A stretch of 64,000 nt of DNA, taken from Gekko japonicus (taxonomy: Eukaryota). A program made the translations under genes and the position numbers. Positions 37,719-62,020 of the stretch are shown here, in pieces; positions within the stretch are counted from its first letter, which is position 1, and each line of letters begins with the position of its first letter. Location of the stretch: positions 66,539 through 130,538 of the forward strand of contig NW_015165238.1 in assembly GCF_001447785.1 (NCBI RefSeq), given 5' to 3'. The notes beneath the pieces are model-generated. The model worked only from the letters and a program-made list of their open reading frames with translations. It had not been told where the DNA came from and searched no databases.

Positions 37719-38660
37719 TCATGTCCTTCCAGACATCAGTTTCCTGGTCAACATTTTTTTCAGAGCAGATTTTACCTCTTGATTCCTAAGAGTATAAATT
37801 AGAGGATTCAAAACTGGAGTGATTGCACTATACAATATAGTGACAATCATCTCCCTTTCAGCCGATTCACCCGTAGATGCAAGCATGTAGTTGGAAAGAA
37901 CTGGAACGTACAAGAGAGCTACAACCGTCAGATGGGAGGCACAAGTTGAGAAGGCTTTCCAACGGCTCTTCCAGGACTGGACTTTGAAGAAGAGGAAGAA
38001 TATGATGTAAAAGTAGGAAAGAAGGGTGAGGAAGAAGGCACCCAGAGCAATTGAACCAGTGACAATATTAAGAAGGCTGAGGTTGAGAGTGGTACTACTG
38101 CAGGCCAATTTTAGGAGGGGCTTGATGTCGCAAAAGAAATGCTGGACATGATTGGAGCCACAGAACCATAGACGGGAGGTCAGAACTGTGTGCATAAGGG
38201 CATGGAAGAAACCAGCAGCCCAGGTCGCCCCAGCTAGCAGGAGACAAGTCAATTTATTCATGATGACCGTGTAACGCAGAGGGTTGCAAATAGCCACACA
38301 GCGATCAAATGCCATAACACCCAGAAGGATGCCTTCACTGCTTCCCAAGAAGTGGAAAAAGTGCAGCTGAGTCAGGCACCCAGTAAAAGAAATTGCCTGA
38401 GGCTCCACTAGGAACCCACTCAGCATTTTTGGCACAGTAACAGTACAACTACATATGTCCAGCCAGGACAGATTGCCTAGAAAAAAGTACATAGGGGTGT
38501 GAAGGCGTGGTTCTACTACCACTACAGCCAAAATAGCTCCATTCCCCAATAAGCTGGCTATGTAGATCAGCAGAAAAAATATAAAGAGAATGTGTTGGTT
38601 TTGGTGGTCTTTTGTTAGTCCAGTGAAAACAAACTCATGCATCTCTGTCTGGTTTTCCAT
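37719..38660 (-). CDS. Olfactory receptor, OR12D-like (intact; start MENQTE)
   Basis: Full OR motif set, MAFDRC variant, NQT sequon; acceptor ttccacag 2 nt before the ATG. Confidence 0.94.
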   Translation of the reverse strand: MENQTEMHEFVFTGLTKDHQNQHILFIFFLLIYIASLLGNGAILAVVVVEPRLHTPMYFFLGNLSWLDICSCTVTVPKMLSGFLVEPQAISFTGCLTQLHFFHFLGSSEGILLGVMAFDRCVAICNPLRYTVIMNKLTCLLLAGATWAAGFFHALMHTVLTSRLWFCGSNHVQHFFCDIKPLLKLACSSTTLNLSLLNIVTGSIALGAFFLTLLSYFYIIFFLFFKVQSWKSRWKAFSTCASHLTVVALLYVPVLSNYMLASTGESAEREMIVTILYSAITPVLNPLIYTLRNQEVKSALKKMLTRKLMSGRT

Positions 38661-41097: not shown

Positions 41098-41825
41098 TAC
41101 TAGACTTGAATCTACCTTGTATTTTATCACTGTATTCATCCCATTTTGAAACCTTTCTCTAGTCTTAGGAGCTTCTTCAACAAGAGAGCCTCTTCCAGTA
41201 AAGACCTCATTCATTATTTCCTAATCATATCTCAAGTTCTAGGGTTTTTTTTAAAAAAGGCAATCTTATTCCCTTGTTAATTCCCATTTACTTTAGCATT
41301 GTAGTTTGCTCTTTCTTGGTAGCATCCATCTCTGTGGGGCTTCTTCAATGTTTTTCATGACTGGAATGCTAAACTCAGCTGATAGACAGAAGATATCAAT
41401 GGCCCCATTTCCTCTTAAACACCTGGTGTTTGTCTCATTCCCTTCCCAGTGTTCTTGTATTAGTGTTTTTAATTCAAATAATTCAGGCCAATCTATATCC
41501 TTTGTTTAAAAATTGGCTGGTTAGTGTTGCTGGTTGGGGAATTAAGTAGCCCAAGACTATTAGAAAAGGAGATTTTTTTTCAATAAATCAAAGTGAACTT
41601 TAATTTGCATATGACTAGTTTTCAGAATGCATGCAGAATTTGTGGAAGGGCCCTTGAGAATAAGTTGGAATTACTTGTAAGTATATATGAAGTAACCATA
41701 GCTGCAAGTTTTTAAAATGCTCCAGGATCTACTTATTATGATCTACTTTTTTTCTGAATGACTGCAAGGGAGGGCATCGCTAAAACAGCCATCTCAGCTA
41801 TTAGTCTGGACATAAAGTTGTCATT

Positions 41826-42089: not shown

Positions 42090-43139
42090 ATTAGAGAAGT
42101 AAGGATCTAAACTCTCTTTTTTGTTTCATATGTCAATAAGAAAATTTTGATTCATCCATATGCTTTGCTTATGTCCCTGTTTTGTTTCTTTTCTGCCATT
42201 TTAAACCAGTTTTATTCCATTTTGTGGCATGTATATGTTAGACACTATTTATATGCCTTTATATGCAGTTGACACATAGAGAATGTCAATATCAAGTGAC
42301 TGTAATGGAGGGAAATCTGACAGGAGAAAACAGAAAATGTCATGAAAATAAAAACTTATAATTTTGACTTGCACAAAGGAGTATTTTGAGTTACAAAGAA
42401 TATTCAAGATGGTGGGCCTGTAACCTTTGATAGAATCCCGGGATTGGATACAGATTTTTCCTTCACTCTTGCCCTATTCCCCTTTTTATAGCCCCTGTCC
42501 AACATGGCTTTTGTCCATGTAGGTCTTATGATCCCTGGCATAGTCTTTTTGGATGGCCAAAGAAAATTATTCTCTCGCGCTCTCTCTCTCTTTTTTACAC
42601 CAGCAGAAAAGTTGGTTGGATCCAACCCCTCATTCTGCTGAAGTGGAGGGCATGTCCTCTGATATAATAAAGTCATATTTCCTGCATAGCAAACCATTTT
42701 GTAAACTTCCTTACACCTCAATGTCAAAAGTTTCTTTAATTGCAGATAAATCTCTACTAGGGTATTGAATGTAGAGGTCCTGGAATTCAAGGTTTCGTTC
42801 TGAAAATGTTGACATTGTTCAAATATTAAAATGAACAAAACCAAACAGTATGTTTAAATTAGAATAATACAATTTGAATTACATTTTAACTCAGTTCAGT
42901 TTTCTTCATTGACAAGACTTCTCCTTTGATCTTAATAAATTGCATACATGAGCACTGAAAGATTTCCCACAAATTCTAGTATACCCCTTCATACAACTGA
43001 ACAGATAAACTGGCTTGTAGGGTAGATTGTGGCTGCCCACTTTTCAGCTGGCACCTGCAGCTGCATTTTGAGATGAGCAGTTATCAGATGGAACAATGAC
43101 ATGGAGAAAAACATTATTACCTGCTTCTAAAGGTACAGA

Positions 43140-43369
43140 TCCTGCCAACCTAGCAGTTCGAAAGCAAGAAATTGCAAGTAGATAAATAGGGACCACTTCG
43201 GTGGGAAGGTAACAGCGTTCCGTGTGCCGTGGTGTTTAGTCATGCTGGCCACCTGACCACGGAAACGTCTTCGGACAGCGCTGGCTCTTCAGCTTTGAAA
43301 CGGAGATGAGCACTGCAACCCTAGAGTCGGATTCGACTGGCTTTCAAGCAAGGGAACCTTTACCTTTAC
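43140..43369 (+). mobile_element. 5'-truncated Sauria SINE (unit A only)
   Basis: 13-bp TSD ctaaaggtacaga; empty site at ~52858. Confidence 0.9.
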
Positions 43370-43782
43370 CTAAAGGTACAGAATAAGGAGGCAGTGCTTT
43401 AGTACTCAATGGGAAATGCAGAAAGACATTCCAGACACTTAAAAACTACATTTTTGCTTGTTTTCTCAAACCTACCTCACTTCTTCCACAGGATAGGATC
43501 CAATTGCCTTTTACTCTCATGTAAAAGAAGGAAGAGAGGTCTCCGTTAACCACCCAAAATGGCTAAGCTGACAGTCATGGTTGTCTGCATGGACAAAAGC
43601 TGTGTGATGACAGCTGTAGTAAGGAGGAGAATTGGATGAGATTGAATTAAAAAGCTGGCTGATTTCCACCCACTGTCACTGGAGGCATTCATACGTCATA
43701 CTTTCCCCCTTTCTGCTGCTCAACTAGGTAAGAGAGGACATGTGATGGAGTATGAGAGCCTTGCAGCTGATAATGTTTGTAC

Positions 43783-44073
43783 CAGGCTTCCCAAGTACTT
43801 ACCGTGATTCGGCGGGGGACACAGACGTCCTCCCAGGATCATTCCTGCGGGGACAACAAACGCGCAGCACCATGCCATCGCCAGGAAGTGACGCCGGGTG
43901 ACGCTCTGGCAATGGGGCTGGAAACTCGATGGTATCATTGAGTTTTCAGTCCTATTGCCAGAGCGTCGCCCAGCATCACTTCCTGGGGTTGGAATGGTGT
44001 GTTACAGGGAGGAATGGTCCAGCCGGGGAGCATGTTTCTCCCGCCGGATCACGGTAAGTACTTAGGAACCCTA
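43783..44073. mobile_element. hAT-type MITE (unit A only)
   Basis: Long TIR ..aagtacttaccgtgat..; TSD gtttgtac / gtttatac; empty site gtttatac at ~53264. Confidence 0.9.
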
Positions 44074-44087
44074 GTTTATACCCATAG

Positions 44088-44305
44088 TTGTGGTGAAAAG
44101 TGCTGTCAAGTCACAGCTGACTTACAGTGACCCCGTAGGATTTTCAAGGAAAGCGACATTCAGGGGTGCTTTGCCATTGCCTGCCTCTGCATAGCAACCC
44201 TGGACTTCTTTGGTGGTCTCCCATTGAAGTACGAACCAGGGCTGACCCTTCTGAGTTTGGAGATGAGATGAGATGACGTTAGCCTGGATAATCCAGAGCA
44301 GGGCA
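44088..44305 (-). mobile_element. 5S rRNA-derived SINE (paralogous copy at 53277-53493)
   Basis: ggtctcccattgaagtacgaaccagggctgaccc is the reverse complement of the 5S ICR. Confidence 0.8.
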
Positions 44306-44378
44306 ATATGCACAGACTCAACACTAATAACAATTCAATGGAGGATATCCAAAGGAAACTATTTGCTCCATGGATCGT

Positions 44379-44655
44379 ACCTGGATAGGTTGTGTTTTTG
44401 TTTTCTGAAGAGATGTTAAATCTGTACCTGAGAAGGTGAGGTGGTATAAGCAATTTTCAACTCCTGGGGAAGATGAAGAAGAGTGAGTTTAGGATGATGG
44501 GAGAACATTGCTTTATCATGTTTATCTGTGTCAGCATCTCATTAAAAGTTAGATGGGGTTTTTAGCGGAGATTTGACTCCTGGGACACACAAAGCCAGAA
44601 GAGAGTTCTTTTGGTTTTGAAAACATGAATGATTGATTAAATCTCAGGAGAGAGA
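44379..44655 (-). promoter_or_regulatory. Candidate promoter + non-coding exon 1 for OR 37719-38660
   Basis: AACTTTTAATGA on - at 44539-44550; O/E-like ctcctggga 44577 and tctcaggag 44642; donor CAG|GTACGA at 44379-44381. Confidence 0.6.
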
Positions 44656-44693
44656 ACTATTAAAATTATTTACAATGAAAAGTACTGCACAAA

Positions 44694-45066
44694 TTTAAAA
44701 TGGACCGTTTTTGATCAGGATATACAAATATGCTATGCCAGCCCCCCGTATCTCCCCAACCGATGGCAGATTTTCCCCGCCAAATCTTCAGTTCCCCTCA
44801 GATCACTGAGTTGCCCTACAGTAGCATGTATATCTTCTCCATTCCTTTTATATAAACTTGAAACTGCCCTACCCTTTGTTTAAAATGGACCGTTTTTGAT
44901 CAGGATATACAAATATGCTATGCCAGCCCCCCATATCTCCCCAACCGATGGCAGATTTTCCCCGCCAAATCTTCAGTTCCCCTCAGATCACTGAGTTGCC
45001 CTACAGTAGCATGTATATCTTCTCCATTCCTTTTATATAAACTTGAAAGTGCCCTACTCTTTGTTT
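44694..45066. repeat. 185-bp tandem duplication (2 copies, about 3 substitutions)
   Basis: tggaccgtttttgatcagg starts at 44701 and 44886. Confidence 0.92.
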
Positions 45067-45619
45067 AGGTATTGGCTTGGGTTTTAGACCGAGTACAGGA
45101 ACTTGAGGGAAAGATAGGAACTGTCCTGTTTGATAAACCCTTGTGAAATGGTACTTGAGGCAAATTAAGTTGCAAAAACAGAATAAACATTTTATTAAAA
45201 AGGCAGGAAATATAGGTATGTTAAAAATAGTCAAGGTGTTGAGATTGCTGAGGTAAAAACTTATATATACAGAGTTGAATTCTTAGAACATTCAAGAGAG
45301 TGTATTCATAGTTTTGTTTCAAGGTTTTCTAGTTCTTTCTTTGAGTGGTTCTTTGTTTAGTATATTCTCCTTGTCCCTATGAAGCAATAACTCATTTTAC
45401 TATTTGGCTTGTATGGGAGTTCACTCTAACTACCCAGAGCTTCTGTCAAATCCTTCTCCAGTATCCTTTGTCTGTATATGGTTGTTCTGAATTCTCCCTC
45501 AGAGCATTTTTAATATATTTAAGAAAAGGGGATTTCTCTTCTCTGTAGAAGTACATTTCTGACTATTGCCTGTCAGAAAACACTGACTCCCAAATGTCTC
45601 TTCCCTCAGAAGCCAAACC

Positions 45620-45846
45620 ATCAGTGGCTATTAGCCACAAGGTATAGATAGGAACTCTCAGTCTGGGGCAAGGGATGCTCTGTATTCTTGGTGCTTGGGG
45701 GGGGGAGTGGGAGGGCTTCTAGTGTTCTGGCCCCACTGCTGGACCTGATGGCACCTGGTTTTTTTTGCCACTGTGTGACAGAGTGTTGGACTGGATGGGC
45801 CTTTGGCCTGATCCAACATTGGCTTCTCATATGTTCTTATGTTCTT
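45620..45846 (+). mobile_element. CR1 3' end
   Basis: catcagtggctattagccacaagg..ctggatgggcc..tatgttcttatgttctt. Confidence 0.85.
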
Positions 45847-47459
45847 CGGCTGCTGATGCAGACCATAGATTTCAGACAAAGACCAAAAGCAAAAGACATA
45901 TTTTCTCTCCAGATCAGCTGTTTTATTTATCTCTCTTCTGAGGTTGGCCAATCAGAGAGTGAGCAGAGCAGCCAATCATATAAGCTCTTCTCTCGAGAAA
46001 AGATTAACTCATGAACTCCCTGACTCTCTGACACAAGCAGTTTTACTTGTTTATTTTTAGCTGAATGTTGTCATTATTTTACACAATTTCATAGCCATAG
46101 GTCCTTTTTTTTGTTTTCTTCCATTTTATATCCTGTGAGATCCATCAGTAGAGCTGAGCTTACCTAGAAGGAATTTCCTACCCCCCACCCCCAGCTGCAT
46201 CTCAAAAAAATATTTCCGGAGATCGGGTACCTTCATGGACAACACAGCAAGAAGAAAGAGCCTAGAGGACACAAATCACCATTTTAATCTCATATATCAT
46301 TTTATACCATTTTTATGCTGAGGCATCCAGTTCTATTACATTTCATAAGTGAAATTTCATCCTGATTGGGGTTTGTGTGCTCACAACATTTATTACGATA
46401 TCTAATTTGGGATGGGCCCTGCTCATATCTTTCACAGCAACACAACGTAGAAAATTAATAAGTGACATTTTTCACAGATGGGGCAATTGTGTGTGTGTGT
46501 AGGGGGGGATTCACCAATGAAATTGCTCAATCAGGCTACAGTAGGGAGCCGAGCCACAGCTGCCTTTTGTTTGCCTTTGTTTGGCGAATCCACCCTGGCT
46601 CCAAATTTGACCAGTGGCCCTGCTTAACCTTGCCTGCATGTGATGTGCTGCAAGGTTCCAAGCCCCATTCCCCTTCCCTGTTGCACCATAAAGCCAGTAC
46701 CAGGTTTGAAAAGACGTTGCTCAGGACCAAGCACACTCCTCCCCAAGCCCCATCTCACCATAAAGCCAGTGATGGTCAGTTCCAATCATGCCCTCCATCA
46801 CCAGGCCTAATTACTGGCTAATCCTACAGTATCCCACAGGAGAGTGGGTGGGTCAGCAGCAGACACCAAATGCCTGCATGAAGGGGTGTAGCTTATCTAA
46901 GCTCCAGCCCTGGCCAATTATCGTCTTGTGTCTCATTTGGCAGAAAGGAGCTAGGATAAACATGTCCATGGCTGCTAATGCTATGTATGCCACTTTAACC
47001 ATCAAAAAAGATTGTTCTCATCTAATCTGAGATGTGCATAGGCAAAAGCCATGTGGGCCAAAGGCATAAATAAGGAGGAAAATTAGGTGAGATTGAGAGG
47101 AAAAGCAGACTAGATCCAAGCTGCTGATGTATGTGGAACCCTGGAAATTAGACAAGGAGTCACCTTGTCATCCAGGGTTAAAGCATAATTAAAGCGCTTC
47201 TATTTTGCCACATCAGAAATTTTTCAGACTCAGGTCTGCTTCATCAGATGGATGAAATGTTATGTTCAGTTGACAGTATCTCCAATTATTTGTAAACCTT
47301 TCTTCTCTTTAGAGGAACTATAAGGACTTTTCCCATCTTTCTTAGCTCTAGCCATTGCTAAGACAGTTTTGGTGGCCAAAATGTCAATGACATAATTAGT
47401 ATTAACAAATAAGAAAAATCATGAAGCCTTCTAGATTTCCTCTGCTTTCTCATAAAAAC

Positions 47460-47632
47460 TTAAGAGAACATAAGGGAAGTCAATGGCTCATCCAGTCCAA
47501 CACACTGTTTCACCCAGTGGCCAACACCAAGGTGCCATCAAGAGGTCCACCAGTAGAGCCAGAACTCCAGAAGCCCTCCCACTGCTGCTCCCCAAGCATC
47601 AAGAATACTGTGCCCCAGACACAGTGTTCTCA
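47460..47632 (-). mobile_element. CR1 3' end (degenerate)
   Basis: Reverse complement of the same CR1 3' UTR. Confidence 0.7.
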
Positions 47633-47919
47633 GTCCCTAGGAAATGTAGAAATGGGACCAGATTTCTCAAACAAAGATGATGCTGTGATTTTCTTGATCA
47701 CTGTCTCTTTGGTTGTGCACAAGGCTATCCCTGTACTTCTGACATTAGCCACCATGTCATGAGAGAGCATGTGGACATGACTGAGCACAATATTGACCTT
47801 TCTAGGAATATTTTCCTTTATGCATATTGACATGTGTAAATGGGAACATCTCCTACTACATTCCCAGTCTTTGTTAGGGACTCTTGCGTAGGATAGATCA
47901 TAATGGAATGTTGTGGATG

Positions 47920-48284
47920 TAGGGTTGCCACGTCTGAATGCAACACCGGTGGGGTGTGGAAGGGAACTTTCCAGGAGTGGGGGGAACACCGAGACATGCT
48001 GACATCACATGAAAGTGGCATCATCGCATCAGGGATGTTGCACAGTGATGCTCTGGTTTTTGGTAAAAACTTTACAGTATAATCAGCCTCAAATCATACA
48101 GTTTTCCCCAAATACAAGATCATCAATGTACAGCATCCCTAACATGCTGACATCACTTCCATGTGATGTCAGTGCATTGCTGTTTCTGGGTGGGACTTCC
48201 TTCTGCTCGCCAGGTGGCCAGTGGTGGGCAGAAGCCCAAAAAACTGAAGGTCCCCCTCCTCCCCATTGGGGAATGGCAGCCTTC
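47920..48284. mobile_element. Old hAT-type MITE (tagggttgcc family)
   Basis: tagggttgcca ... tggcagccttc; flanks tgtggatg / tgtgaatc. Confidence 0.6.
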
Positions 48285-48923
48285 TGTGAATCATCACTTA
48301 CAACATGTTATTCTGTTCTTTCTTCATGTGTCACCTGTACATCATGAGGTTCATTGTGTCTACCCTGACAAGCAAGCTGCCAAAGTGGTTAATAAAGTCA
48401 GGTTTATCTCATGAAGGGTAATAGAAATCTATCAGGAAATCTGTCCCAGTTTCTGGCTATGGATTACATGGATGCACTCATCTCCTCAAAATTTTTATTA
48501 TTTTTACTGAATATGACTTGAACAAGAAGAAGAAAATATCATCAAGTTGTAACCAACTCATGACAACCCCATCTATGGTGTGTTCGGGGGAAGAGACGAG
48601 CAAAAGTAGTTTTCCATTGCCTTCCTTTGCATAGCAATCCCATTCTTCTTTGGCAATCTCCCAACCAAGTGATATATTGGACAACTCTGCTTAGCTCCCA
48701 AGTGCTGATGAGCTCAGATTAAGCTGGGCTATCCAAACTGCTTGAGTTGAACAAAGATATAGGTAATGGGGGCAGAGGGGAGAACATTAAAGGATCATCT
48801 TAGATACACTTCAACAGGGATGCAGCCAGTGCAGTGACTCTACAAATCTTAATGAATGCATCTTGGTCAATCAAGAGTATGAAAGAAATGTGGGGACAGG
48901 AAACCAAGAGGGGGAAAATAAAT

Positions 48924-49865
48924 TCATATCCTTCCAAACAAATGTTTTCGGCTGAAGATTTTTTTCAGAGCAGATTTTACCTCTTGATTTCTCAATGTGT
49001 AGATCAGAGGGTTCAAAACTGGAGTGACCACACTGTACAATATAGTGATGATCATCTCTCTTTTAGAAGATTCCCCAACGGATGCAAGCAAGTAGTTGGA
49101 AAGAACTGGAACATACAAGAGAGCCACAACCGTCAGGTGGGAGGCACAAGTCGAGAAGGCTTTCCAACGGCTCTTCCAGGACTGGACTTTGAAGAAGAGG
49201 AAGGAAATGATGTACAAGTAGGAGAAAAGAGTGAGGAAGAAACCACCCATAGCAATGCAGCCAGTCACAATATTAAGGAGGCTGAGGTTGAGGGTGGTGC
49301 TACTGCAGGCCAATTTTAGCAGAGGTTTGATATCACAGAGGAAGTGCTGAACATGATTGGGGCCACAGAACCGTAACAGAGAGGTCGCCATAGTATGCAT
49401 CAAGGCATGAAAAAAGCCAGCAGTCCAGGTGGCCGCAGCTAGCAGCAGGCAAGTCAATTTATTCATGATGACTGTGTAACGCAGAGGGTTGCAGATAGCC
49501 ACGTAGCGATCAAATGCCATAACCCCCAGAAGGATGCCCTCACCACTGCCCAGGAAGTAAAAGAAATGCAACTGAACCAGGCATCCAATGAAAGAAATTG
49601 CTTGGTGTTCTGTTAAGAAGCCATTCAGCATTTTGGGCACCGTAACAGTGGAGTAGCAGATGTCCAGGCAGGACAGATTGCCTAGAAAAAAATACATAGG
49701 TGTATGGAGTCGAGGCTCAGCTATAGCGACAGCCAGAATGGCTCCATTTCCCAGCAAACCACCCAAGTAGAGCAGCAGGAACATCACAAAGAGAGTGTAC
49801 CGCTCCCTGTGGTCATCTGTAAGACCCAGGAGAATGAACTCATGCACTTCAGTCCGGTTCTCCAT
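48924..49865 (-). CDS. Olfactory receptor, OR12D-like (intact; probable start MENRTE; upstream ATG at 49913 probably intronic)
   Basis: Full OR motif set ([32 protein letters not shown]); acceptor tttccacag 2 nt before the ATG. Confidence 0.94.
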   Translation of the reverse strand: MENRTEVHEFILLGLTDDHRERYTLFVMFLLLYLGGLLGNGAILAVAIAEPRLHTPMYFFLGNLSCLDICYSTVTVPKMLNGFLTEHQAISFIGCLVQLHFFYFLGSGEGILLGVMAFDRYVAICNPLRYTVIMNKLTCLLLAAATWTAGFFHALMHTMATSLLRFCGPNHVQHFLCDIKPLLKLACSSTTLNLSLLNIVTGCIAMGGFFLTLFSYLYIISFLFFKVQSWKSRWKAFSTCASHLTVVALLYVPVLSNYLLASVGESSKREMIITILYSVVTPVLNPLIYTLRNQEVKSALKKIFSRKHLFGRI

Positions 49866-50288
49866 TGCTGTGGAAAGAAAACAACAACAGCAAAGCCAGT
49901 TACTCTGTTCCAAATGGAATGGAAGTCTTTGAAAAAGAAACCAGAACAGGGATAGCTACGGACCTATTGAGTTAGTTGTTTTGTGGTTCTCCAGTAAAAA
50001 AAAAAAAGAGTGTCATACAAACATAACACATGCTTGCTTGTTTTAGTTCCCCAGTTACATTTACATTTGACACATTCATAATGCAGCATTCACACTAGCA
50101 TAGAAAAAAGTTTTGCATTGATAGCCCCTGGATAGCTGGCTTTCCAGAATAATGATGGAACTGTAATGATCAATTGCTGTGGAAATACCTTTTTAACAAA
50201 GCAGAGTTAAATCAAATCAACATTGACTGATCTCCAAGAAAGTATTTAGTGGAACATTACGAATTTTAAATTTCATGTTCGAATGTTA

Positions 50289-50705
50289 TTTATTTATTTA
50301 TTTATTTAATTAATATTTAGATTTCTATCCCGCCCTCCCCACAGGCTCAGGGCGGCTAACAGGGCATAATGCCAGATAAAACAATAAAACAATATAAAAT
50401 GTTAAATTACACATAGACAATCAACAAACAGTTAAATAACATCCTAAAACAATTTTCGTGCTCCTCTATTCAGTTCCAGATGTTAAGATTATATTTAAGA
50501 GCAAGATGGCATTCTCAGTAACATAGCTAGACAACTACGGCAGTGCCTATCCCACTGCCCTGCCGTCCCCTAAAAGACGTCCCATTCCCTCCAATGATGC
50601 CCACATCAGGATGGCAATATGCAGAAATCATAGGGCGTTGGTGGAACAATGATGGTGGCAGTTCCTATCCGAAAGCCTGGCGGAAGAGCTCCATCTTGCA
50701 GGCCC
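50289..50705 (-). mobile_element. L2-like LINE 3' end (unit A only)
   Basis: (ttta)n tail, tatcccgccctccc..ggctcagggcgg; tgtta duplicated; empty site ~59210. Confidence 0.8.
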
Positions 50706-50965
50706 TGTTAAAATGTTAGGTTTAAAAAACGCACCATAAGAATGACTGAGAAAGAATCTCTGAATGCTACAAAGGGTGGTTGCATGTGAAACAAAGAAAA
50801 GTGTTGATTAACATGCTACACTCTTCAGATGAAAAGTTTGTAGTTGAATTCCCCTTTGCAATCATTAAGAAGGAAGTAGGCATCCTTTTTCCAGTATATA
50901 CAAGAAAATGAGGAAGAGGAGCATTTTTAAGGGAAGACAAGCTATCCTGGAGGTGATTATGGAAA

Positions 50966-51314
50966 TAAAGGTAAAGGTTTCCCTTGCTTGAAAGCTAGTC
51001 GAATCCAACTATAGGGGGCGGTGCTCATCTCCATTTCCAAGTCGAAGAGCCAGTGCTGTCCGAAGACTTCTTCATTGCCATGTGACTGGCATGACTAAAT
51101 GCCAAGGCATACAGAATGCTGTTACCTTCCCACCAAAGTGGTACCTATTTACCTACTTGCAATTTCTTGCTTTTGAACTGCTAGGTTGGCAGGAGCTGGG
51201 ACCAGAGACAGGAGCTCACTCCATCACATGGCACTACATTCTCGAACTGCCGAACTGCAGACCTTTCAGTCTGCAGCTCAACGTCTTAACCTTTAAGTCA
51301 CCGTGGCCACTTCA
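50966..51314 (-). mobile_element. Sauria SINE, full length
   Basis: TSD attatggaaa; tail aaaggtaaagg. Confidence 0.88.
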
Positions 51315-52509
51315 ATTATGGAAACAGGGACAATTAAATTGGCAGTCGTGAGAATCCTGCAAATATTGAGGTCAATTCTTTCTTTCTTGGCTGTAATGGG
51401 AAGATACCAAATTATTTAAATAAGTAGATAAATAAGTATCTAGATATTTATATCCCACCTGATGTAAATCAGGCAGCTTCCAACATCATCCTCTCCTCCA
51501 TGTTATTTTTACACTAACCTCATGAAGTAGGTAAGACTGAGAAAAAAGAACTGGTCCAAGGTCACCCAGTATGTTTTCATGGCATTGTAGGGATTTGAAT
51601 GGGGTCCTCTCAGATGCTTGTCTGATGCTCTAAGCAGTTCCAAGCCAGGTTTTACTTTTGTCTCTGTCTCCCCACCCCCAGCCAGAATCTAGGGAAGCTA
51701 CCATAAAGACTGTGGTGGGCCTCCTCTTATTTTCTTTCTTGACACTGTTTTGTTCCAAATAGTCATATTCTGTTTACCTGAGAAGATTGTCAGCATATTG
51801 TGGAATGGCTCCTGCATTTTACCAGATTACCCCACTGATGCTGAAAAACCAATCGACAAGGGAATTGATCTTCTTATCTTATCTGCACATTCACACTTAC
51901 TTGCCTTTTCAGAATTCACAAAATAGTCGTAGTCTATGCAATATCTGAGAGGGTTGTTTTTTTTAAAAAAAGCAACCCAAATCTCTTCTTATTTCCTATT
52001 CTAACTGCTATTCATTTTTCTCTGTTGCCTCCAACCACCATTGGCCTCTCCAGTCTTTCCATGATAGGCATATCAAAATCAGGCAACAGAAGGAAGACGG
52101 CAATGTGTCCCCCCTTTCCTACGGAAACATTTGATGCCATGACTGTCATCTCTTATAATTTCTCATTTACCAACTGTAGCCAAGCTATTGTTGGAGATGT
52201 CAGCCCAGAAGTGAGCCATTATATTGATATATACATTCAAAGCATGTTTATGCCACTCCACGTCTTGTAATGTATGTCTTCTACTGTTCAGAGCTTGTTG
52301 AATGTTTCTCTTCTTTCTGTCGTGTTTCTCGTCTTCCTGTAAATTCTTATATCCTGAAAGGCTCTCTGCTACTTAAGAACAAAGTTTTCATTTATTTTTT
52401 GTTTTTGCACTTCAATTGTTTAAGAGAACTTAGAGACTGTAACTCTACATGGCTGGAACTGGTGTATTTTCTTAGTTCTGCTAATATCTGTAACCTTTTT
52501 TAGAAACGA

Positions 52510-52635
52510 TAGGGTAGACATGTTGGTCTAAAGCAGAATAACAAAGTTTGAGTCCAATGGCACCTTTGAGACCAACAAAGTTTTATTCAAGATAGAAGCT
52601 TTCATGTGCAAGTACACTTCTTCAGATATAGAAGA
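52510..52635 (-). ncRNA. Penelope-type repeat half with a minimal hammerhead-ribozyme motif
   Basis: Minus strand: tat CTGAAGA a gtgt actt gcac at GAAA gcttc tat (core 52600-52625). Confidence 0.45.
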
Positions 52636-53578
52636 AGTAATACATTGCAGGCATGAGCACTGAGAAATTCTCCACAGATTCTATTATATCTATTATATTA
52701 TACAACTGAACAGATAAACTGGCTTGTATGGTAGGTTATGGCTGTCCACTTTTCACCTGGCAACTGCACCTATGTCTTGACATGGGCAGTTATCAGGCAG
52801 AAGAATGACATGGAGAAAAGCATTATTACCTGCTAAATGGTGCAAATTTAGCTGCTTCTAAGGATACAGAATAGGGAACCGTGTTTTAGTACTCAATGGG
52901 AAATGCAGGAAGACATTCCAGACATGTAAAAACTACATTTTGCTTGTTTTCTTATACCTACCTCACTTCTGTCACAGGGTAGGATCCTACTGGCTTATAC
53001 CCCATGTAAATGAAGGAAAAGAGGCCTTTGTTAACCCCCCCAAAAAGGCTTTGCTTAGGGTCATGGGGCCTGCATGGACAAAAGTCATGGGATGACAGCT
53101 GTAGTAAGAGGGAGAATTGGATGAGATTGAATGAAAAACCTTGCTGATTTCCACCCACTATGTAATTGGAGGCATTTATACTTCATACTTTCCCCCTTTC
53201 TGCTACTCAACTAGGCAAGAGAGGACATGGGATGGAGTATGAGAGAGCCTTGAAGCTGACAATGTTTATACCCACAGTGGTGGTGGATAGTGCTGTCAAG
53301 CCACAGCTGACTTATGGCAACCCCGTAGGGTTTTCAAGGCAAGGAACATTCGCAGGTGCTTTGCCATTCCCTGCCTCTGCATCACAACCCTAGACTTCAT
53401 TGGTGGTCTCCCATTCAAGTACAAACCAGAGCTGACACTCCTTAGTTTTGGGAACTGATGAGATCAGGCTAGCCTGGGCTATCCAGGGCAGGGCAATACA
53501 CAGAGATTCAACACTAATAACAGTTCAATGGAATATGAAAAGAAATATCCAAAGGCAACTATTTGCTCCCTGTCTCAT

Positions 53579-53865
53579 ACCTGGATTGGTTATGTTTTTT
53601 GTCTTCTGAAGAGGTTAAACCTGTACCTGAGAAGGTGAAGTGGTATGAGTAATTTTCAACTTCTGGAGAAGATGAAGATGAAGAAGAGTGGGTTTAGGAT
53701 GATAGAACATTGCTTTATTATGTTTATCTGTGTCGACATCTCATTAAGGGGGAGAAGTTTTTTTGTTTTTTTTTAAGAGGAGGTTTGACTCCTGGGACAC
53801 ACAAAGCCAGAAGAGAGTTCCTTTGGTTTTGAAAGCATGAATGATTGCTTAAATCTCAGGAGAGA
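53579..53865 (-). promoter_or_regulatory. Candidate promoter + non-coding exon 1 for OR 48924-49865 (duplicate of the 44.5 kb module)
   Basis: TAATGA on - at 53741-53746; ctcctggga 53789; tctcaggag ~53854; donor CAG|GTATGA at 53579-53581. Confidence 0.6.
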
Positions 53866-55285
53866 AAACGATTAAAACTATTTAAAATGAAAAGTGCTGC
53901 ACAAATATATTTGAGGTGGACATTCTCTTTTTACCAGGATATACAAATAGGCCCTTACTTGTTTATTTTTGGCTAGGTGTGTTGTCATTGCTTTATCCAT
54001 TTTCAGATCCAATTTCAATTGTTTTCTTCCATTTTATATCCTAAGAGATCCATCAGTGGAGCTGAGCATACCTCGTAGGAATTTCCTACCCCAACCCCCC
54101 GGAGATAGGGCACTCTCATGGACAACACAGCAGACCAAAAAATAAAATGGTTTGGAGGACAAAAATCACCACTTTAATATCATTTTGTACCATTGCTATG
54201 CCGAGGCATCCCATTCTATTACATTTCATCAGTGAAATTTCATTCTGATCTGGAAGAACCCATTTCAGAAACTGGGGTTTGCAAATGAAAACATTGTGCT
54301 CACAATATTTGTTAACATCTCTAATTTGAGAAGGGCCCTGCTTGTATCTTTCACAACAATACAACATAGGAAATTATGAAGTGACCTTTTTCCTGAATGG
54401 GGAAATTGCGGGGGAAACTTTCACCTGGCTGAATCAGGCTACAGTAGGGAGCCTAGCCACAACTGCCTTTTGTTTGTCTTTGTTTGGGAAAATCCATCCT
54501 GGCTCCATCCTGACCAGTGGCCTTGCTTATGCTTTCCTGTGCACAATGTGCAACAAGCTTCCAAGCCCCATTCCCCTTCCCTGTTACACGGTAAAACCAC
54601 TACCAGGTTTGAAAATGTCACTCAGCGCCAAGAGCATTCCTTTCCAAGCCCCATTTTGTCATAAAGCCAATGATGGTCAGTTCCAATCATGCCCACTATC
54701 ACCAGGCCTCATTACTGGCTAATCCTACAGTGGTTAACCCTATAGTATCCCATGGGAAGGTGGGTCGGTCTGCAGCACACAGCAAATGCCTGCTTGGAGG
54801 GGTGTCGTTTGTCTAAGTAGCTGCACTGCTGCCCTTTGACTGGAACACTTCCAGTCCTGATCAATTATTGCCTTGTGCATTTGGCAGAAAGAAGCTAGGG
54901 GAAACATGTCCATGGCTGCTAATGCCATGAATGCCACTCACCTAATTTGGAACATGCATAGACAAAAGCCATGTGGGGCAAAGGCAAGAATAAGGAGGAA
55001 AATTAGGTGAGATTGAGAGGAAAAGCTGACTAGATCCAAGGCACTGGTGTGTGTATGTTTCTTAGCTAGTATGTATTCACAGTAATAGTTTTTAGGGATA
55101 ACTTTGATAATTAGTCCATGGAGTCACACTGTCATCCAGGGTTAAAGCATAATTACAGCTTTTGTATTTTGCCATATCAAAATTTTTTCAGGCTCAGGTT
55201 TGCTTCATCAGATGGATGAAATTATATGATCAGCTGACAATATCTCCATTTATTTCTAAATCTTCTTTCTCTTTGGAGGAACTAT

Positions 55286-55750
55286 GGCCAAGTTCAGACT
55301 GGCAGTTTTCCCCGATATAGACACGTTTCAGAAACGTTCCATAACTGGATTAAAAGGGCCGCTCACACAGGCACATCTGTCAGGCGTTCTCCACCCGTAC
55401 TCAACCCGTCTTGTAACACTTCGCTCCCGAGTTTAAAAGATACCTAGTGAAAGTGGTAGCAAACCTTGGAAAGTGCGATTATCCCATGTCCATCCCGCAC
55501 CAAAAAAGTGTGAACGCCAAGAGCCACATTTTTCTTATGTGCATATGTGCATAAACGCATATCTCCAGATTACCAAAAAAGCTGCGCCTTACAGCGGTGC
55601 CTCTGGGCCAACAGTGTGAACGCTCCCTTGTGCCTCCTCCTGCTTTTGCTCCCGCATCAGTCGCTGCAGTGTGAACAGGAGAACCCGGAACAGTTCTCTT
55701 TTTTTTGCCAGGACTCCCTCCCGCTTCAAACTGCCAGTCTGAACTCAGCC
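55286..55750. mobile_element. PIF/Harbinger-type MITE (unit B only)
   Basis: TIR ggccaagttcagactggcagttt / aaactgccagtctgaactcagcc; TSD tat; empty site gaactataagg at ~47316. Confidence 0.9.
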
Positions 55751-55949
55751 TATAAGGGAGTTATAGATATATTTGCTTTTTTGTTAAGAGTCAGGCATCA
55801 AGGCTTGTCTGCTTCAAAACAGAACAGTACTTTATTTTCTGAAAACATGTACATTTTCAGAGATCATGTACATTAAGGGAAAGTCTTACTCTTCCACAGC
55901 CAGTGAAGTAACTCCACAAAACTTATTCACATGATATCACAATGAAACT

Positions 55950-57700
55950 CTTTCTTTTTTAATTAATAAGACATTCATTATGTTCACAAAAGAAGAGCAA
56001 TCTAAATGTAGAACTATTATAACATTATCGACTGGTAGATATGCCAAGAAAACCTAGGCTAAACCTATACTTTTTGTACGATTTTTGAACACTCACATAA
56101 CAATTCATATTGATACATGTTCACAATAACCTTACAGGTTTAACCAGATTCTATCATTGTTTCTACATGGAAGAACTTCATTCTGTCTCAGAAACCCAAT
56201 AACTGGCTTCCAGATTTCATCATAATTGCAGGGTGAAACAGACAACTGGGAACCAAGAAAGAAAGAATTGTTCTCTGTTTTCCCCATGATATAGACATCC
56301 CAAATTTTGTCAAACCAGGCATCTATGGAAGGCCCATTTTGGTTTTTCCAATTGGCTGCAATTACCTGCCATGGAGCTGCAATCAATATCAAGACCAAGG
56401 AATGTAGGTACCCTTTTATTATGGGGATGGAAGATGGCCAAGTGGTTGGCAAACATTGGTTTAGGATGCATTACAGATTGATGTTAAGCTGTTTTTGAAG
56501 TTTACATGAAGTTGATAAGCTGTAATTTTTCAATTAGATCCTTCTACTCTACACTTGATTCTTGCTTAAATTAAGGTAAATTAAGATTGTTATTTACTGG
56601 ATTGCATAGTTAGTTTGTATTTTTTTCTTTTTCTAACAAATTTGAACTGTAGTTGTATTTTCCACAAAACTAATTGTACCACTGGTAAAAAACAACAACC
56701 AGATTTATCTTTTTTTCTCTTTTTTACTATTGTAATAGTACTATAGAAGTTTAATAAAATGTTTTTTTTAAGGCCAAAGAATGTTGACTCTTTTCCATTG
56801 AATAATCTGGCCAGAAATTAAAAACAAAAAGGTCTGAAGACATAGTGAGAGAAATGTCTAAGATTTGTGAGATCTTATCAGCAACTGTGCCCCAAAAGGA
56901 TTGGATCACTGGACAAGCCCATCATAGATATAAGGGAGGGGGGGCTCATTGATTACACCCTTTCCAGCAAAGTAGGATTCAATTTTATTAAGTTTGGTTG
57001 GTCACAGATACCAGTTAGAGATTGTCTTATAAAATCGGAGCTTTAAAGGAACTATAGATGATTTGTTAGAAGGGGAGTTTCACATTTTCTGCCATTCTTT
57101 AGGAGTTAATGTCCATTTTAATTCTTTCTCCCAAATCTTAGTGTATGTAGGGGGTTTGTTGTTGATTGTATGTTGGAGGTTCTTATAAATTTTAGTCAGT
57201 GAATGTTTGGTTTTCTTTTCTGTGTTTCTGAGAATTTCTTCAAATTCTGTTAATGTCAGAAGAAGATGACCATCTTTTATTAATTGCATTATTAAATATT
57301 GCATTTGAGAGCACTGAAACCAGTTAATTTGATGACCTAATTTGTCCTCTGCCATAATTTTAGAAATAATAGTGCCATTCAACATCCAGGCACAAAGCCT
57401 ACCTAAACCAGTCCTCATCCATTCCTGGTATCTGAAGGGTTCCCAGCTAGGGGAAAACCACTATTTAAAATAGTTGATACTGGAGAGGGATAAGGAGCTC
57501 AGATTTTTCTGTAATTATCACAAATTGTTAAAGTATTATAGAGGAAGGGATTCACCAGGATTAAATGAGATCTAAACTTCCGTGCTGTCCCCATAGTTTC
57601 TATGAAACTATTTCCATGTTTCAGGATTCCCAACAATCTGGAACCAATATATATGGGAGAAAATCAAGGCCAGCGTAACTGGGGCAGGCAAAACCCTGTT
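55950..57700 (-). mobile_element. L1/Tx1-clade LINE ORF2 3' portion, degenerate
   Basis: TKIWEKEL..EWQKM; CWKGC..WWACPVIQSFW; IAANWKNQNGPSIDAWFDKIW..EIWKPV. Confidence 0.75.
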
Positions 57701-57845
57701 CACTTTGATTAGCATGCTTTACAGCCCAGTTTAGTTTGCCCTGTAGTCACTTAACAAGGGCCACCAACAATCATGCATACCTATTTTAGATAATAAATAC
57801 ATGATAGAGATGTGGGTACAGGAAACAGAGAGTCAGAAAATAAAT

Positions 57846-58787
57846 TCATATTCTTCCCAACAAATGTTTCCGGCTGAAGGTTTTTCTCAGAGCAGACTTT
57901 ACTTCTTGATTTCTCAGTGTGTAGATCAGAGGGTTCAAAACTGGAGTGACCGCACTGTACAATATAGTGATGATCATCTCTCTTTTAGCAGATTCCCCAG
58001 CGGACGCAAGTAAGTAGTTGGAAATAACTGGAACATACAAGATAGCCACAACTGTCAGATGGGAGGCACAAGTTGAGAAGGCTTTCCAGCAGCTTTGCCA
58101 AGACTGGACTTTGAGGAAGAGGAAGGATATGATATAAAAGTAGGAGAGAAGGGTGAGGAAGAAGGCACCCAGAGCAATTGAACCAGTGACAACATTAAGA
58201 AGACTGAGATTGAGAGTGGTACTACTGCAGGCCAATTTTAGGAGGGGCTTGATGTCACAAAAGAAATGCTGGACATGATTGGGGCCACAGAACCATAGGC
58301 GGGAGGTCAGAACTGTGTGCATAAGGGCATGAAAGAAACCAGCAACCCATGTGGCCCCAGTTAGCAGAAGGCAAGTCAATTTATTCATGATGACCATGTA
58401 ACGCAGAGGGTTGCAGATAGCCACGTAGCGATCGAATGCCATAACCCCCAGAAGGATGCCCTCACCACTGCCCAGGAAGTAAAAGAAATGCAACTGAACC
58501 AGGCATCCAATGAAAGAAATTGCTTGGTGCTCTGTTAAGAAGCCACTCAGCATTTTGGGCACCGTAACAGTGGAGTAGCAGATGTCCAGGCAGGAGAGAT
58601 TGCCTAGAAAAAAGTACATGGGGGTATGCAGTCGAGGCTCAGCTATAGCAACAGCCAGAATGGCTCCATTTCCCAGCAAACCGGCCAAGTAGAGCAGCAG
58701 GAACATCACAAAGAGAGTGTACCGCTCTCTGTGGTCATCTGTAAGACCCAGGAGAATGAACTCATGCACTTCAGTCCGGTTCTCCAT
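57846..58787 (-). CDS. Olfactory receptor, OR12D-like (intact; probable start MENRTE; upstream ATG at 58835 probably intronic)
   Basis: Full OR motif set; N-terminal half nearly identical to the 48924-49865 gene. Confidence 0.94.
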   Translation of the reverse strand: MENRTEVHEFILLGLTDDHRERYTLFVMFLLLYLAGLLGNGAILAVAIAEPRLHTPMYFFLGNLSCLDICYSTVTVPKMLSGFLTEHQAISFIGCLVQLHFFYFLGSGEGILLGVMAFDRYVAICNPLRYMVIMNKLTCLLLTGATWVAGFFHALMHTVLTSRLWFCGPNHVQHFFCDIKPLLKLACSSTTLNLSLLNVVTGSIALGAFFLTLLSYFYIISFLFLKVQSWQSCWKAFSTCASHLTVVAILYVPVISNYLLASAGESAKREMIITILYSAVTPVLNPLIYTLRNQEVKSALRKTFSRKHLLGRI

Positions 58788-60354
58788 TGCTGTGGAAAGA
58801 AAACAACAACAGCAATGCCAGTTATTCTGTTCCAAATGGAATGGAAGTCTTTGAAAAAGAAACTATAATAGCTATGGACCTTTTGAGTTAGTTGTTTTGT
58901 GGTGGTTCAGTCAAAAAACATGAGTGTCATAGAAACATAACACATGCTTGCTTGTTTTAGTTCCCCAGTTACATTTACTTTTGACATATTCATAATACAG
59001 TATGCAGTCAGGTGTTCACACTGGAGTACAATTTTTTTTTGCATTGACAAGGTCCCAGATAGCTGGCTGTCCAGAATAACAATGGAATTGTATAATGATC
59101 AATTGCTGCAGAAATACCATTACCAAAACGCAGTTAAATAAAGTCAATATTGACTGGTCATCAAGAAAGTATTTAGTGGAACATTATGAATGTTTAATTT
59201 CATGGTTGAATGTTAAAATGTTAGGTTAAAAAAAAACATAAATATGACTGAGAAAGAATCTCTGATTTGTAAGGCCGGGGATAATACAAGTCATATCCCA
59301 CCTGATGTAAATCAGGAAGGTTACAACATCATTCTCTCCTCCATGTTATTCTCACACTACCCCCTTGAGGTAGGTTAGACTGAGAGAGAAGAACTGGCCC
59401 AAGGTCACCCAGAATGTTTCCATGGCACTGTAGGGATTGAACTGGGGCCTCTCAGATGCTAATGTGATGCTCTAACCACTACAGCACACAACAGTTCCAA
59501 GCCAGGTTTTACTTATGTCTCTCCCCAGTCAGAATCTAGGGGTGCTACTATGAAGACTGTGGTGGACCACCTTCTCTTTCCTTTCTTGACACTATTTTGT
59601 TCCAAATAAAGTCATATTCTGTTTACCTGAGAAGACTGTCAGCATATTGTGGAAGGGCTCCTGCATTTTGCCACATTACCCCACCGATGCTGGAAAACCA
59701 ATCAACAAATGAATGACTCTTCCCATCTTCTTTGCACGTTCATACTTGCTTGCCTTTTTAGAATTCACAAAAATAATCACAGTCTGTGCAATATCTGTGA
59801 GGGATTTTAAAAAAAAGCAAACCTAATTCCATGGCAAATCACTTCTTATTTCCTATTTCAATTCCTGTTCCATTTTCTGTGTTGCCTCCCAGCACTATTG
59901 GCCTCTCCAGTTTTTCCGTGACAGAAATATAAAAACCAGGCAACACAGAAGGAAGACAGCAATGTGTTGCCCCTCTCCTACCTAAACATTGATGCCATGA
60001 GTGTCACCCCTTATCATTTCTCATTTACCAGCTGTAGCCAAGCTATTGCTGGAGTTGTCAGATTACTGTACATCCAGATTCAGAGCATGTTTATGCCATT
60101 GTAATGTATGCCTTCTACCGTTGAGAGCTTGTTGAATGTTTCTCTTGTTTCCCTTCTTTCTGTCATGTTTCTCATCTGCCTGTAAATTCTTATATCCTGA
60201 AAGGCTCTCTGCTACTTAAGAATGAAGTTTGTGTGTGTTTGTTTTGTTTTTGCATTTCAGTTGTTCAAGAGACCTTATCGAATGTAACTGCATGCCTGGA
60301 ACTGGTGTATTTTCTTAGTTCTTCTAGCATCTGTAACCTTTGTGAGAAACGGGT

Positions 60355-60580
60355 GGGTAGCTGTGTTGGTCTGAAGCAGCAGAACAAAGTTGGAATCCAG
60401 TGGCACCTTTAAGAGCAACAACCTTTTATTCAAGGTGTAAGCTGTCGTGTGCACACACATTTCTTCAGATACAGAAGTATCTACAGGTATATGAAGAAGC
60501 GTGCTTGCAGACGAAAGCTTATACCTTGAATAAAACTTTGTTGCTCTTAAAGGTGCCCCTGAACTCCAACTTTATTCTTT
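60355..60580. mobile_element. Penelope-type palindromic repeat with two hammerhead-like motifs
   Basis: Inverted arms ggcacctttaagagcaacaa..ttttattcaagg / ccttgaataaaac..ttgttgctcttaaaggtgcc; + strand aggtat-ATGAAGA-stem-GAAA-gctt-atacct at 60485-60526. Confidence 0.7.
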
Positions 60581-62020
60581 GATAGAAAGTGGGTGTTATT
60601 GCCTAGGGACATAAGTGGATCCATCTTACGCAGAGCAGAGTTGGGGTCGTTTCCATCCACTGATCTCAATATGACTATGTGCAAGTAAGTTTGTAAATGG
60701 CTGGGTTTTTTGTAAGCTTATGTACTGTTCTGGGGAGTAAATGTCATTGAATAGTAAGGATTGTGTTATAAGTAAACATGCATAACATCTGGCTGCAGCC
60801 TTTTAAAGAATGGCAGCACTACCTGTGATCCAGAATCTGCTTTTTCCCAGACAGAGGACAATGATATACATGTTTCTAAAAATCCATTTCAGTGTTTGAT
60901 TTGAAAGTAAATGTTCTGAATTTACTTATATTTCATTACCAGTTTCTTATCTTAATAGCAAACTTTATTAAAATATGAAACCACTGCAATTCAACTTCCA
61001 TTAGGAAAATATCAGTGCTGCTGAAATGTTAACAATAAAAAACAAATGATATTAAATGATTTTGTTAATTTGAATATTTGTCTCTCTTGCATACATTACC
61101 AGGTCTCTTGCCTTCGGTAATATTTACCTTTTGAATGGACTAAGATGAGAGTTTCTCCTCAGATTTTGCTACAGATGTTCCTACAATTGAAGAGGCAAGA
61201 CGCTTAACTAAGCCATACTTTGCCTTTTGGTCTATGGCTGTCATATCTGTGCCTCGTTCCTGTTGCAGTTCCTTCAACAGTGACATGATAATCAAAAATT
61301 ATTAGGCAGCCCTCGTAAGTACACGGAGAAAAAGTGTTCATTTACTAATCTCTGCAAATCAAGCTGCTGTTAAAGATACAAAGCAGTGATGAAATGATTC
61401 AGCATTATATAAAATTTGGGGAGACATTTTTCAATGCAATTCTGAGCAGAGTTTTACCTTTCTGTGTTTATTGATGTCACATCAATATTGGCACAATTGG
61501 CACAATATTGGCACATCAATATATGCACAATGGCATGACTCTGCTTAGGACTGCACTGCTGTGCTCCGTTAAAAACATGTAGGTGGCATTTTTTTAATAA
61601 AAGAAAGATTTTTCAAATAAAATAAAACACAGAAATAATTTACAGTATATCATGATAAACCCATAGCAACTCAGCATACATGTTTATAAGTAATTTATTA
61701 ATCCAATGGCTAATGATCCAGAGTAGACCAATTAACCTGCAGGTCAACCACATATACCTCAAATAGGTCTCACCTTCATCTTTATGCTGGTAGCAACAAA
61801 CCTTGCTTTTCAAAGAGAGATAAATGTATCCCCATTTCCCATAGTTATCCTGATCAGACAGTGCAGTCTGTACTTAGCTCATAATTCTTCCTTTTCTGCA
61901 AACACCGCCGTGTATGGGAGAACACAGGACCTAGGAATCATATTGCTGGCAATGATTGCACCCACAGACTGAACACTTAATAATATATCAAAACATATTG
62001 CCCCACCCCCAATGAGTTAT

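What the first reader, a model, noticed from the sequence alone, without database searches (positions are those of the whole stretch)
42948..60475. Tandem duplication produced a chimeric OR with a borrowed promoter
Seen: each unit contains a promoter module and then an OR coding exon. Because the genes are on the - strand, the module in a unit serves the gene to its left. So gene 48924-49865 has coding exon and proximal intron homologous to gene 57846-58787, but distal intron, exon 1 and promoter (52652-53865) copied from those of gene 37719-38660 (42948-44655). The 58-kb gene keeps a more diverged module at 62 kb. Inference: promoter shuffling at gene birth could decouple receptor sequence from expression zone or choice frequency.
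Basis: partly seen in the sequence, partly recalled or inferred. Interest (0 to 1): 0.7.

Follow-up and report, generated by a model that had tools for sequence, protein, structure and literature searches.

The report
Gecko odor receptor with borrowed promoter
An old tandem duplication in a gecko smell-receptor cluster joined a copy of one gene's coding part to a copy of its neighbour's upstream region, which likely holds the promoter and first exon, so the new gene would be switched on like its neighbour, a known way of making new genes whose effect here is untested.

Summary
Observation confirmed. Blocks 42933-47321 / 52638-55285 and 48879-52634 / 57801-60477 are collinear copies of equal age (15.0% vs 14.2% non-coding difference, P=0.54). 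They join at the tip of a palindromic repeat inside the 5' intron. The 49-kb OR12D-like gene thus has the coding exon and proximal intron of the 58-kb gene but the upstream module of the 38-kb gene (88% vs 60% identity; AU p=1e-6). Contigs of the same species and two relatives also show two module copies. That the module is promoter plus exon 1 is inferred from O/E-like and homeodomain motifs and a conserved splice donor; no transcript was seen. Precedents: human OR51A2/OR51A4, Drosophila chimeric duplicates; this scan noted a similar duplication in a shark receptor cluster (e1-9834801). New member of a known kind; effect on expression untested.

The parts
30857..31798 (-). OR12D-like gene g31 (outgroup paralogue)
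   Evidence: ORF; trees
34720..35056 (-). module m31: predicted promoter and exon 1 of g31
   Evidence: profile hit and donor
37719..38660 (-). OR gene g38 (type X; donor of the upstream module)
37878..37994 (-). codons 223-261 of g38, closer to g49 than elsewhere (likely conversion tract)
   Evidence: third positions 4 of 39 vs 101 of 267 elsewhere, P=5e-4
41241..41428 (-). remnant of old homology between the g38 intron and the proximal intron of g49/g58
   Evidence: nhmmer E=1.3e-9
42933..47321 (.). upstream block M, copy 1 (distal intron, module m44, upstream DNA)
44381..44700 (-). module m44: predicted promoter and exon 1 of g38; O/E-like sites near 44651 and 44585, splice donor after 44381
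44539..44550 (-). extended homeodomain-like site AACTTTTAATGA, only in m44
   Evidence: 1 match in 270 kb scanned; motif from PMC7804114
48924..49865 (-). OR gene g49, the promoter chimera; splice acceptor 2 nt before the ATG
49866..52634 (-). proximal intron of g49, copied from g58's (three aligned pieces, with later repeat insertions)
51778..51840 (-). candidate non-coding exon 2 of g49 (pyrimidine tract-AG and CAG|GTAAAC conserved in both copies)
   Evidence: not shown by RNA
52501..52634 (.). half of a palindromic repeat, cut at its centre
52634..52638 (.). duplication junction (homologue of 60477 joined to homologue of 42933)
52638..55285 (.). upstream block M, copy 2
53581..53915 (-). 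module m53: predicted promoter and exon 1 now upstream of g49; splice donor after 53581
57846..58787 (-). OR gene g58 (type Y promoter; coding mosaic)
58148..58346 (-). conversion tract in g58 received from g38 (CDS nt 442-640, within codons 147-222)
   Evidence: permutation p=1e-4; fourfold sites 2 of 36 vs 24 of 67
59627..59689 (-). candidate non-coding exon 2 of g58
60340..60590 (.). complete palindromic repeat; its hairpin tip lies near 60480
   Evidence: DNA fold -71.9 kcal/mol; 4124 candidates in the genome, 40 scored
62023..62340 (-). module m62: predicted promoter and exon 1 of g58

Best explanation
The 49-kb olfactory receptor gene is a chimera whose coding exon and proximal intron are copies of the 58-kb gene's and whose upstream module is a copy of the 38-kb gene's, likely made by one tandem duplication with both breakpoints in 5' introns, so that it would be transcribed from the borrowed module, which is predicted to be a promoter and first exon. 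Steps. (1) Shown: two homology blocks, head to tail, of equal age, with the junction at the tip of a palindromic repeat. (2) Inferred: the ancestor was X - M - Y - M'; a segment from X's distal intron through Y's proximal intron was duplicated, giving X - M1 - Y1 - M2 - Y2 - M'; the hairpin likely supplied the break. (3) Inferred: M2's exon 1 donor splices to a Y-type exon 2 and on to the acceptor before the ATG, giving an intact receptor under X-type control. (4) Shown as sequence mosaics, inferred as gene conversion: Y2 (g58) later took codons ~147-222 from X, X took codons ~223-261 from Y1, and Y1/Y2 homogenised their ends. Net result: the ancestral Y receptor sequence now sits behind the X-type module, and the Y module sits in front of a receptor with an X-type middle. 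(5) Untested: whether this changes zone or choice frequency.
For: Block structure and junction. Equal divergence of the two halves, 317 of 2109 vs 164 of 1154 sites, P=0.54. Module tree m44+m53 99/99, coding tree g49+g58 100/99 for codons 1-138, AU tests. One module 3-6 kb upstream of each of g31, g38, g49, g58, same strand, each ending in CAG|GTA; a one-mismatch O/E consensus site in m44, m53 and m62 and none in 49867-52640 (consensus from PMC3247239). The module is what stays alignable among old paralogues while most intron DNA does not. Runs X1 (same species label), X3 and X5 (two relatives) each lay two contigs at 43020-43088 and at most one left of 42984, so a second module copy without X intron to its left exists in reads; X1 record 4 would by collinearity span 52599-53306, across the junction. 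Euleptes and Eublepharis Y proteins group with g49 over residues 147-222 (96/92), g58 with g38 (95/89). In mice ~300 bp of promoter with O/E and HD sites drives OR-like expression (PMC12547500).
Against: No transcript: RNA run X12 had zero depth over the part of exon 1 laid (tissue unknown, so uninformative). The promoter core is not significantly more conserved between m44 and m53 than neutral DNA (15 of 140 vs 481 of 3263, P=0.22). A fifth, well-preserved module on contig C13562 has no same-strand OR within 25 kb, so a module need not serve an adjacent gene; g24, g65, g75 and g84 have no such module. The central TCCCAGG site does not pass the O/E consensus at one mismatch, and the composite pattern was written after seeing the alignment. 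47321-48879 and 55285-57801 do not align, so the unit is not seamless. The junction letters were not read directly in any run, and X1 may not be independent of the assembly.
Confidence: 0.72

Rival explanations
1. Same chimera, two steps: unequal crossing-over between the old homologous introns of X and Y (or duplication of a two-gene unit), then a deletion from the palindrome tip that erased the crossover site (or the second X copy).
For: X and Y introns are old collinear homologues (41241-41428 E=1.3e-9; 52660-52946 vs g58 distal intron E=3.7e-6; weaker 42697-43064 E=0.015). The junction skips about 0.67 kb relative to a homologous crossover. Palindromes favour deletions (general knowledge).
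Against: Needs two events; global identity of the old intron homology (63-69%) is near shuffled controls (up to 63%); no remnant of a second X gene between 52634 and 52638.
Confidence: 0.14
2. Y was duplicated with its own promoter, and the promoter region of the left copy was later overwritten from M by a long ectopic conversion.
For: The two blocks are separated by non-alignable DNA; conversion is frequent among these genes.
Against: Equal age of both blocks (P=0.54); the tract would be 2.6-4.4 kb and its far end has no homology with DNA upstream of m62.
Confidence: 0.05
3. The structure is real but the borrowed module does not drive g49: it is an enhancer-like or idle copy, and g49 starts in its proximal region or is rarely expressed.
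For: No RNA support; no significant constraint on the core; an orphan module exists on C13562; unique DNA at 51750-52260 is unassigned.
Against: m53 keeps both O/E-like sites, TAATGA and the donor; the proximal region has no module homologue or O/E-consensus match and carries an internal-exon-like acceptor and donor; the ORF is intact with orthologue-like proteins in other geckos.
Confidence: 0.07
4. The junction is a mis-join of a short-read assembly at a palindromic repeat, hiding a promoter and another gene.
For: The junction sits in a high-copy repeat, and a similar element at 35882 abuts an N gap.
Against: No second copy of X intron left of the breakpoint in three runs; X1 record 4 extends about 37 letters past the junction by its geometry; no N at the junction.
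Confidence: 0.02

Closest known systems
Human OR51A2/OR51A4 fusion allele (and OR8U1 from OR8U8/OR8U9); Hasin et al. 2008, PMC2570968, passages read
   Same: An OR coding region placed under the upstream region of a neighbouring paralogue; the authors already propose that such events create ORs with new regulation.
   Different: That case is a polymorphic deletion by NAHR with loss of a gene; here it is a gene gain, the breakpoint lies in a 5' intron at a palindrome tip without long homology, both parents are kept, and the product is old and shared with relatives.
Chimeric tandem duplicates with shuffled regulatory elements (Rogers, Shao, Thornton 2017, PMC5460883, abstract read; Katju 2012, PMC3449122, passages read)
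   Same: One duplication partly covering two adjacent genes creates a chimera with the 5' end of one and the body of the other.
   Different: Those are young Drosophila or nematode variants with RNA data; here both parents are paralogues in a one-receptor-per-neuron family and only non-coding exons are swapped.
Mammalian class II OR promoters with O/E and homeodomain sites (PMC3247239, PMC12547500, PMC7804114; passages and one section read)
   Same: Short AT-rich module with O/E-like and TAAT sites upstream of a non-coding first exon.
   Different: Here no start site or factor binding is mapped; the organism is a gecko.
Gene conversion among tandem OR paralogues (recalled; not confirmed by a paper read here, search listed none on vertebrate ORs)
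   Same: Patchwork identity along single-exon coding regions.
   Different: Here the tracts run opposite to the promoter swap, giving two complementary chimeras.

Membership tests
Chimeric tandem duplicate (promoter capture) | Head-to-tail duplicated segment whose ends lie in two adjacent genes | tested here: met
   ends at 42933 (g38 intron) and 60477 (g58 intron), junction 52634/52638
Chimeric tandem duplicate (promoter capture) | Both parts have the same age | tested here: met
   15.0% vs 14.2%, P=0.54
Chimeric tandem duplicate (promoter capture) | 5' part and gene body have different closest relatives | tested here: met
   AU p=1.4e-6 and 3.4e-4
Chimeric tandem duplicate (promoter capture) | A chimeric transcript is made | tested here: inconclusive
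   no RNA holder listed; zero depth in one RNA run of unknown tissue
Chimeric tandem duplicate (promoter capture) | Expression follows the donor promoter | not testable with these tools
   needs nasal in situ or single-cell data
Class II OR promoter | O/E-like site | tested here: met
   one-mismatch consensus match in m44, m53, m62 but not m31; second looser site in all five modules
Class II OR promoter | Homeodomain (TAAT) site nearby | tested here: met
   TAATGA in m31, m44, m53; TAATCA in m62; lost in the C13562 copy
Class II OR promoter | Followed by a non-coding exon with a splice donor | tested here: inconclusive
   CAG|GTA conserved in 5 of 5 modules; splicing not observed
Class II OR promoter | Mapped transcription start and Lhx2/Ebf binding | not testable with these tools
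   no CAGE or ChIP data
Olfactory receptor, OR12D-like | Intact single-exon 7tm_4 ORF with nearest named relatives OR12D-like | tested here: met
NAHR fusion allele (OR51A2/A4 type) | Breakpoint inside a long near-identical tract | tested here: not met
   junction flanks share at most a couple of bases and lie about 0.67 kb out of register
Penelope-like repeat remnant (junction element) | Minimal hammerhead motif in a pLTR | tested here: inconclusive
   a CTGAAGA...GAAA core is visible by eye in each arm, Rfam gave no hammerhead hit; family name recalled, motif background from PMC4209133 passages

The most novel reading that the evidence does not exclude
The trio is a natural reciprocal swap kept across gekkonid geckos: the ancestral Y receptor moved under a copy of the X promoter, the Y promoter now drives a receptor with an X-type TM4-TM5 segment, and the donor X promoter afterwards gained an extended homeodomain site of the kind that raises gene choice in mice. 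Promoter and binding pocket would then be reshuffled as independent modules, with palindromic repeats in 5' introns acting as the breakpoints that create such genes.
Probability: 0.2. Interest if true: 0.62.

Novelty: new member of a known kind. Interest (0 to 1): 0.4.

Why it matters
Where and how often an OR is chosen depends largely on cis elements near the gene (PMC12547500), and engineered coding swaps move glomeruli (PMC8394594, passages). A fixed natural chimera with both parents next to it lets one ask directly whether expression follows promoter ancestry or coding ancestry in a reptile, where OR promoters are barely described. It also warns that OR trees built on coding sequence alone misstate regulatory ancestry. 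The mechanism itself is known, so the value is as a clean test case rather than a new principle.

Tried and rejected
RNA: no RNA holder listed for 48900-53950; run X12 (about 3 in 100 of it read) had no depth outside repeats in 42600-44500; neither is evidence on expression. Alternative promoter in the proximal intron: the only cross-match (52266-52484 vs g65 upstream) is an old repeat with 19 other hits in the genome; rejected. Crossover inside the coding exons as the origin of g49: rejected, it predicts an X-type 5' coding half and proximal intron. Recent or allelic duplication (haplotig): rejected at 15% divergence with independent insertions. g58 3' flank copied from g38 at duplication time: only a faint 160-190 bp match; read as old homology. 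Constraint test on the promoter core: not significant. Rfam on the palindrome: only sub-threshold microRNA hairpin hits. Earlier notes near this place: none. Literature searches (open-access library only, listings read) showed no report of this locus or of a reptile OR promoter chimera; supplements were not read and could list such cases. Protein comparison used 23 of the 120 listed homologues, chosen as the top squamate hits; 90% clustering hides close copies and gives no gene order.
Full report
Setting. The window holds a cluster of olfactory receptor genes; five minus-strand OR12D-like genes lie at 23.7, 30.9, 37.7, 48.9 and 57.8 kb and three more follow beyond the window. The nearest named proteins are from geckos (Heteronotia 91%, Euleptes 90%, Eublepharis 89%), so the organism is taken to be a gecko. 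I call the genes g31, g38 (type X), g49 and g58 (type Y).

The duplication. Self-BLAST shows two blocks in tandem: 42933-47321 matches 52638-55285 (block M), and 48879-52634 matches 57801-60477 (block Y). Non-coding difference is 317 of 2109 sites in M and 164 of 1154 in Y (P=0.54), so both were copied at about the same time. Between the blocks, 47321-48879 and 55285-57801 do not align; much of each is repeats, and g49's 3' flank loses homology about 50 bp after the stop. I read this as later deletion and insertion, but it leaves room for a two-event history. The junction at 52634/52638 joins the homologue of 60477 to the homologue of 42933 with at most a couple of shared bases. Position 60477-60480 is the tip of a 250-bp palindromic repeat (fold -71.9 kcal/mol); the family has thousands of candidates in the genome and the scored ones are mostly whole palindromes, while g49's intron keeps one arm only. 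A hairpin-induced break is the likely cause (inference). The X and Y introns are themselves old homologues, and the junction is about 0.67 kb out of register with them, so an unequal crossover followed by deletion would give the same product.

Is it real? Contigs of run X1 (same species label) and of two relatives (X3, X5), laid on 42600-44500, show two copies from about 42990 onward and at most one to the left. In X5 one contig continues into X's intron at 6-9% difference and another differs by 16%, so the duplication predates that split. X1's second-copy contig (708 letters, aligned from its position 472) would span window 52599-53306, across the junction, if collinear; its letters there were not shown, and X1 may not be independent of the assembly.

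The module. One copy of a ~340-bp module lies 3-6 kb upstream of each of g31, g38, g49 and g58 on the coding strand. It has two O/E-like sites, a TAAT site and, about 160-220 bp further on, CAG|GTA in all copies. These are the features of mouse OR promoters (PMC3247239 passages; PMC12547500 section 3, first part). m53 is 87.7% identical to m44 and 59.6% to m62; holding m53 with m62 is rejected (AU p=1.4e-6), while codons 1-138 place g49 with g58 (100/99; the alternative is rejected at p=3.4e-4). The proximal intron of g49 has no module homologue and no one-mismatch O/E match, but carries a conserved candidate internal exon (51840-51778) and an acceptor 2 nt before the ATG. The predicted transcript is X-type exon 1, Y-type exon 2, coding exon. 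Against: no RNA was seen; the core is not significantly constrained between m44 and m53 (P=0.22); four other genes of the clade lack the module; and a fifth copy on contig C13562 has no same-strand OR within 25 kb.

Coding mosaics. g49 and g58 differ at 6 of 83 fourfold sites in codons 1-138 plus 262-314 but at 11 of 29 in codons 147-222, where g38 and g58 differ at only 2 of 36 (24 of 67 elsewhere). Permutation tests give p=1e-4 for a g38-g58 tract at nt 442-640 and p=1e-4 for a g49-g58 tract at nt 6-342; the g38-g49 tract is weaker (p=1e-3). Because g49 and g58 are more different in the middle than the duplication age allows (P=0.002), g58 was the recipient. Proteins from Euleptes and Eublepharis have the g49-type middle; Heteronotia has an X protein, a g49-type and a g58-type protein, whose N-terminal halves group by species (85/78) as they do here (98/86); the one Paroedura Y hit is g58-type (23 of 120 listed homologues, no gene order). 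Whether the X-type middle is one old event or recurrent conversion is open; its low synonymous divergence suggests renewal.

Promoter divergence. m44 alone has AACTTTTAATGA (1 match in 270 kb), matching 12 of 13 letters of the J-element HD1 site, which the authors liken to the extended homeodomain site of H, P and the P3 promoter (PMC7804114 passages). m53, m62 and m31 have a C-rich run there, so m44 is likely the derived state, and m62 has TAATCA. The borrowed copy therefore need not behave exactly like today's g38 promoter. This is a post hoc observation.

Comparison. A human deletion gives a gene with the OR51A4 coding region and OR51A2 upstream region, and the authors already suggest that such events create ORs with new regulation (PMC2570968 passages). 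Chimeras from duplications spanning two adjacent genes are common and often change expression (PMC3449122 passages; PMC5460883 abstract). Eight searches of the open library listed no report of this locus.

Verdict. The structure is confirmed and well polarised; the promoter role is a strong inference; the effect on zone or choice frequency is untested. New member of a known kind, interest 0.4.

Noticed in passing
G000:C13562:69483-69867 (L003, L012): A fifth, well-preserved copy of the promoter/exon 1 module (68% to m62) in a cluster of unrelated ORs, facing away from its neighbours; nearest same-strand OR is 25 kb off with an opposite-strand gene between. Orphan promoter, long-range first exon or enhancer.
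   Followed up: partly
window 44539-44550: Extended homeodomain-like site in m44 only, apparently four changes within five bases relative to m53; convergence on the mouse choice-enhancing motif or a small rearrangement.
   Followed up: partly
window 35312-35555 and 36229-36406: A second, partial exon 1 module upstream of m31, next to an N gap, a half palindrome and a broken OR fragment: traces of another duplication and deletion upstream of g31.
   Followed up: partly
window 60340-60590; also ext 80345-80570 (L007) and 35882-35947: Palindromic repeat family with a hammerhead-like core in each arm, likely a Penelope-type remnant (name recalled); it recurs in introns of this cluster.
   Followed up: partly
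window 44694-45067 and 40585-41098: Young local tandem copies (189 bp at 98%, 215 bp at 99.5%) directly upstream of m44 and inside the g38 intron; could be real or assembly doubles.
   Followed up: no
window 43136-43368: SINE with a target-site duplication, absent from m53's block and from relative X5's contig; it sits at an AG of a possible micro-exon that is 28 nt in copy 2 and 6 nt in copy 1.
   Followed up: partly
G000:C5528:29590-30510 and window 5616-6548: Two ORs 42 kb apart with the same first 45 residues and the same identity to the query; probably a recent duplicate or an assembly double.
   Followed up: no
L009-L010 (ext 101387-106689): Exons of a class C GPCR (V2R-like) begin about 17 kb beyond the last OR12D-like gene.
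   Followed up: no
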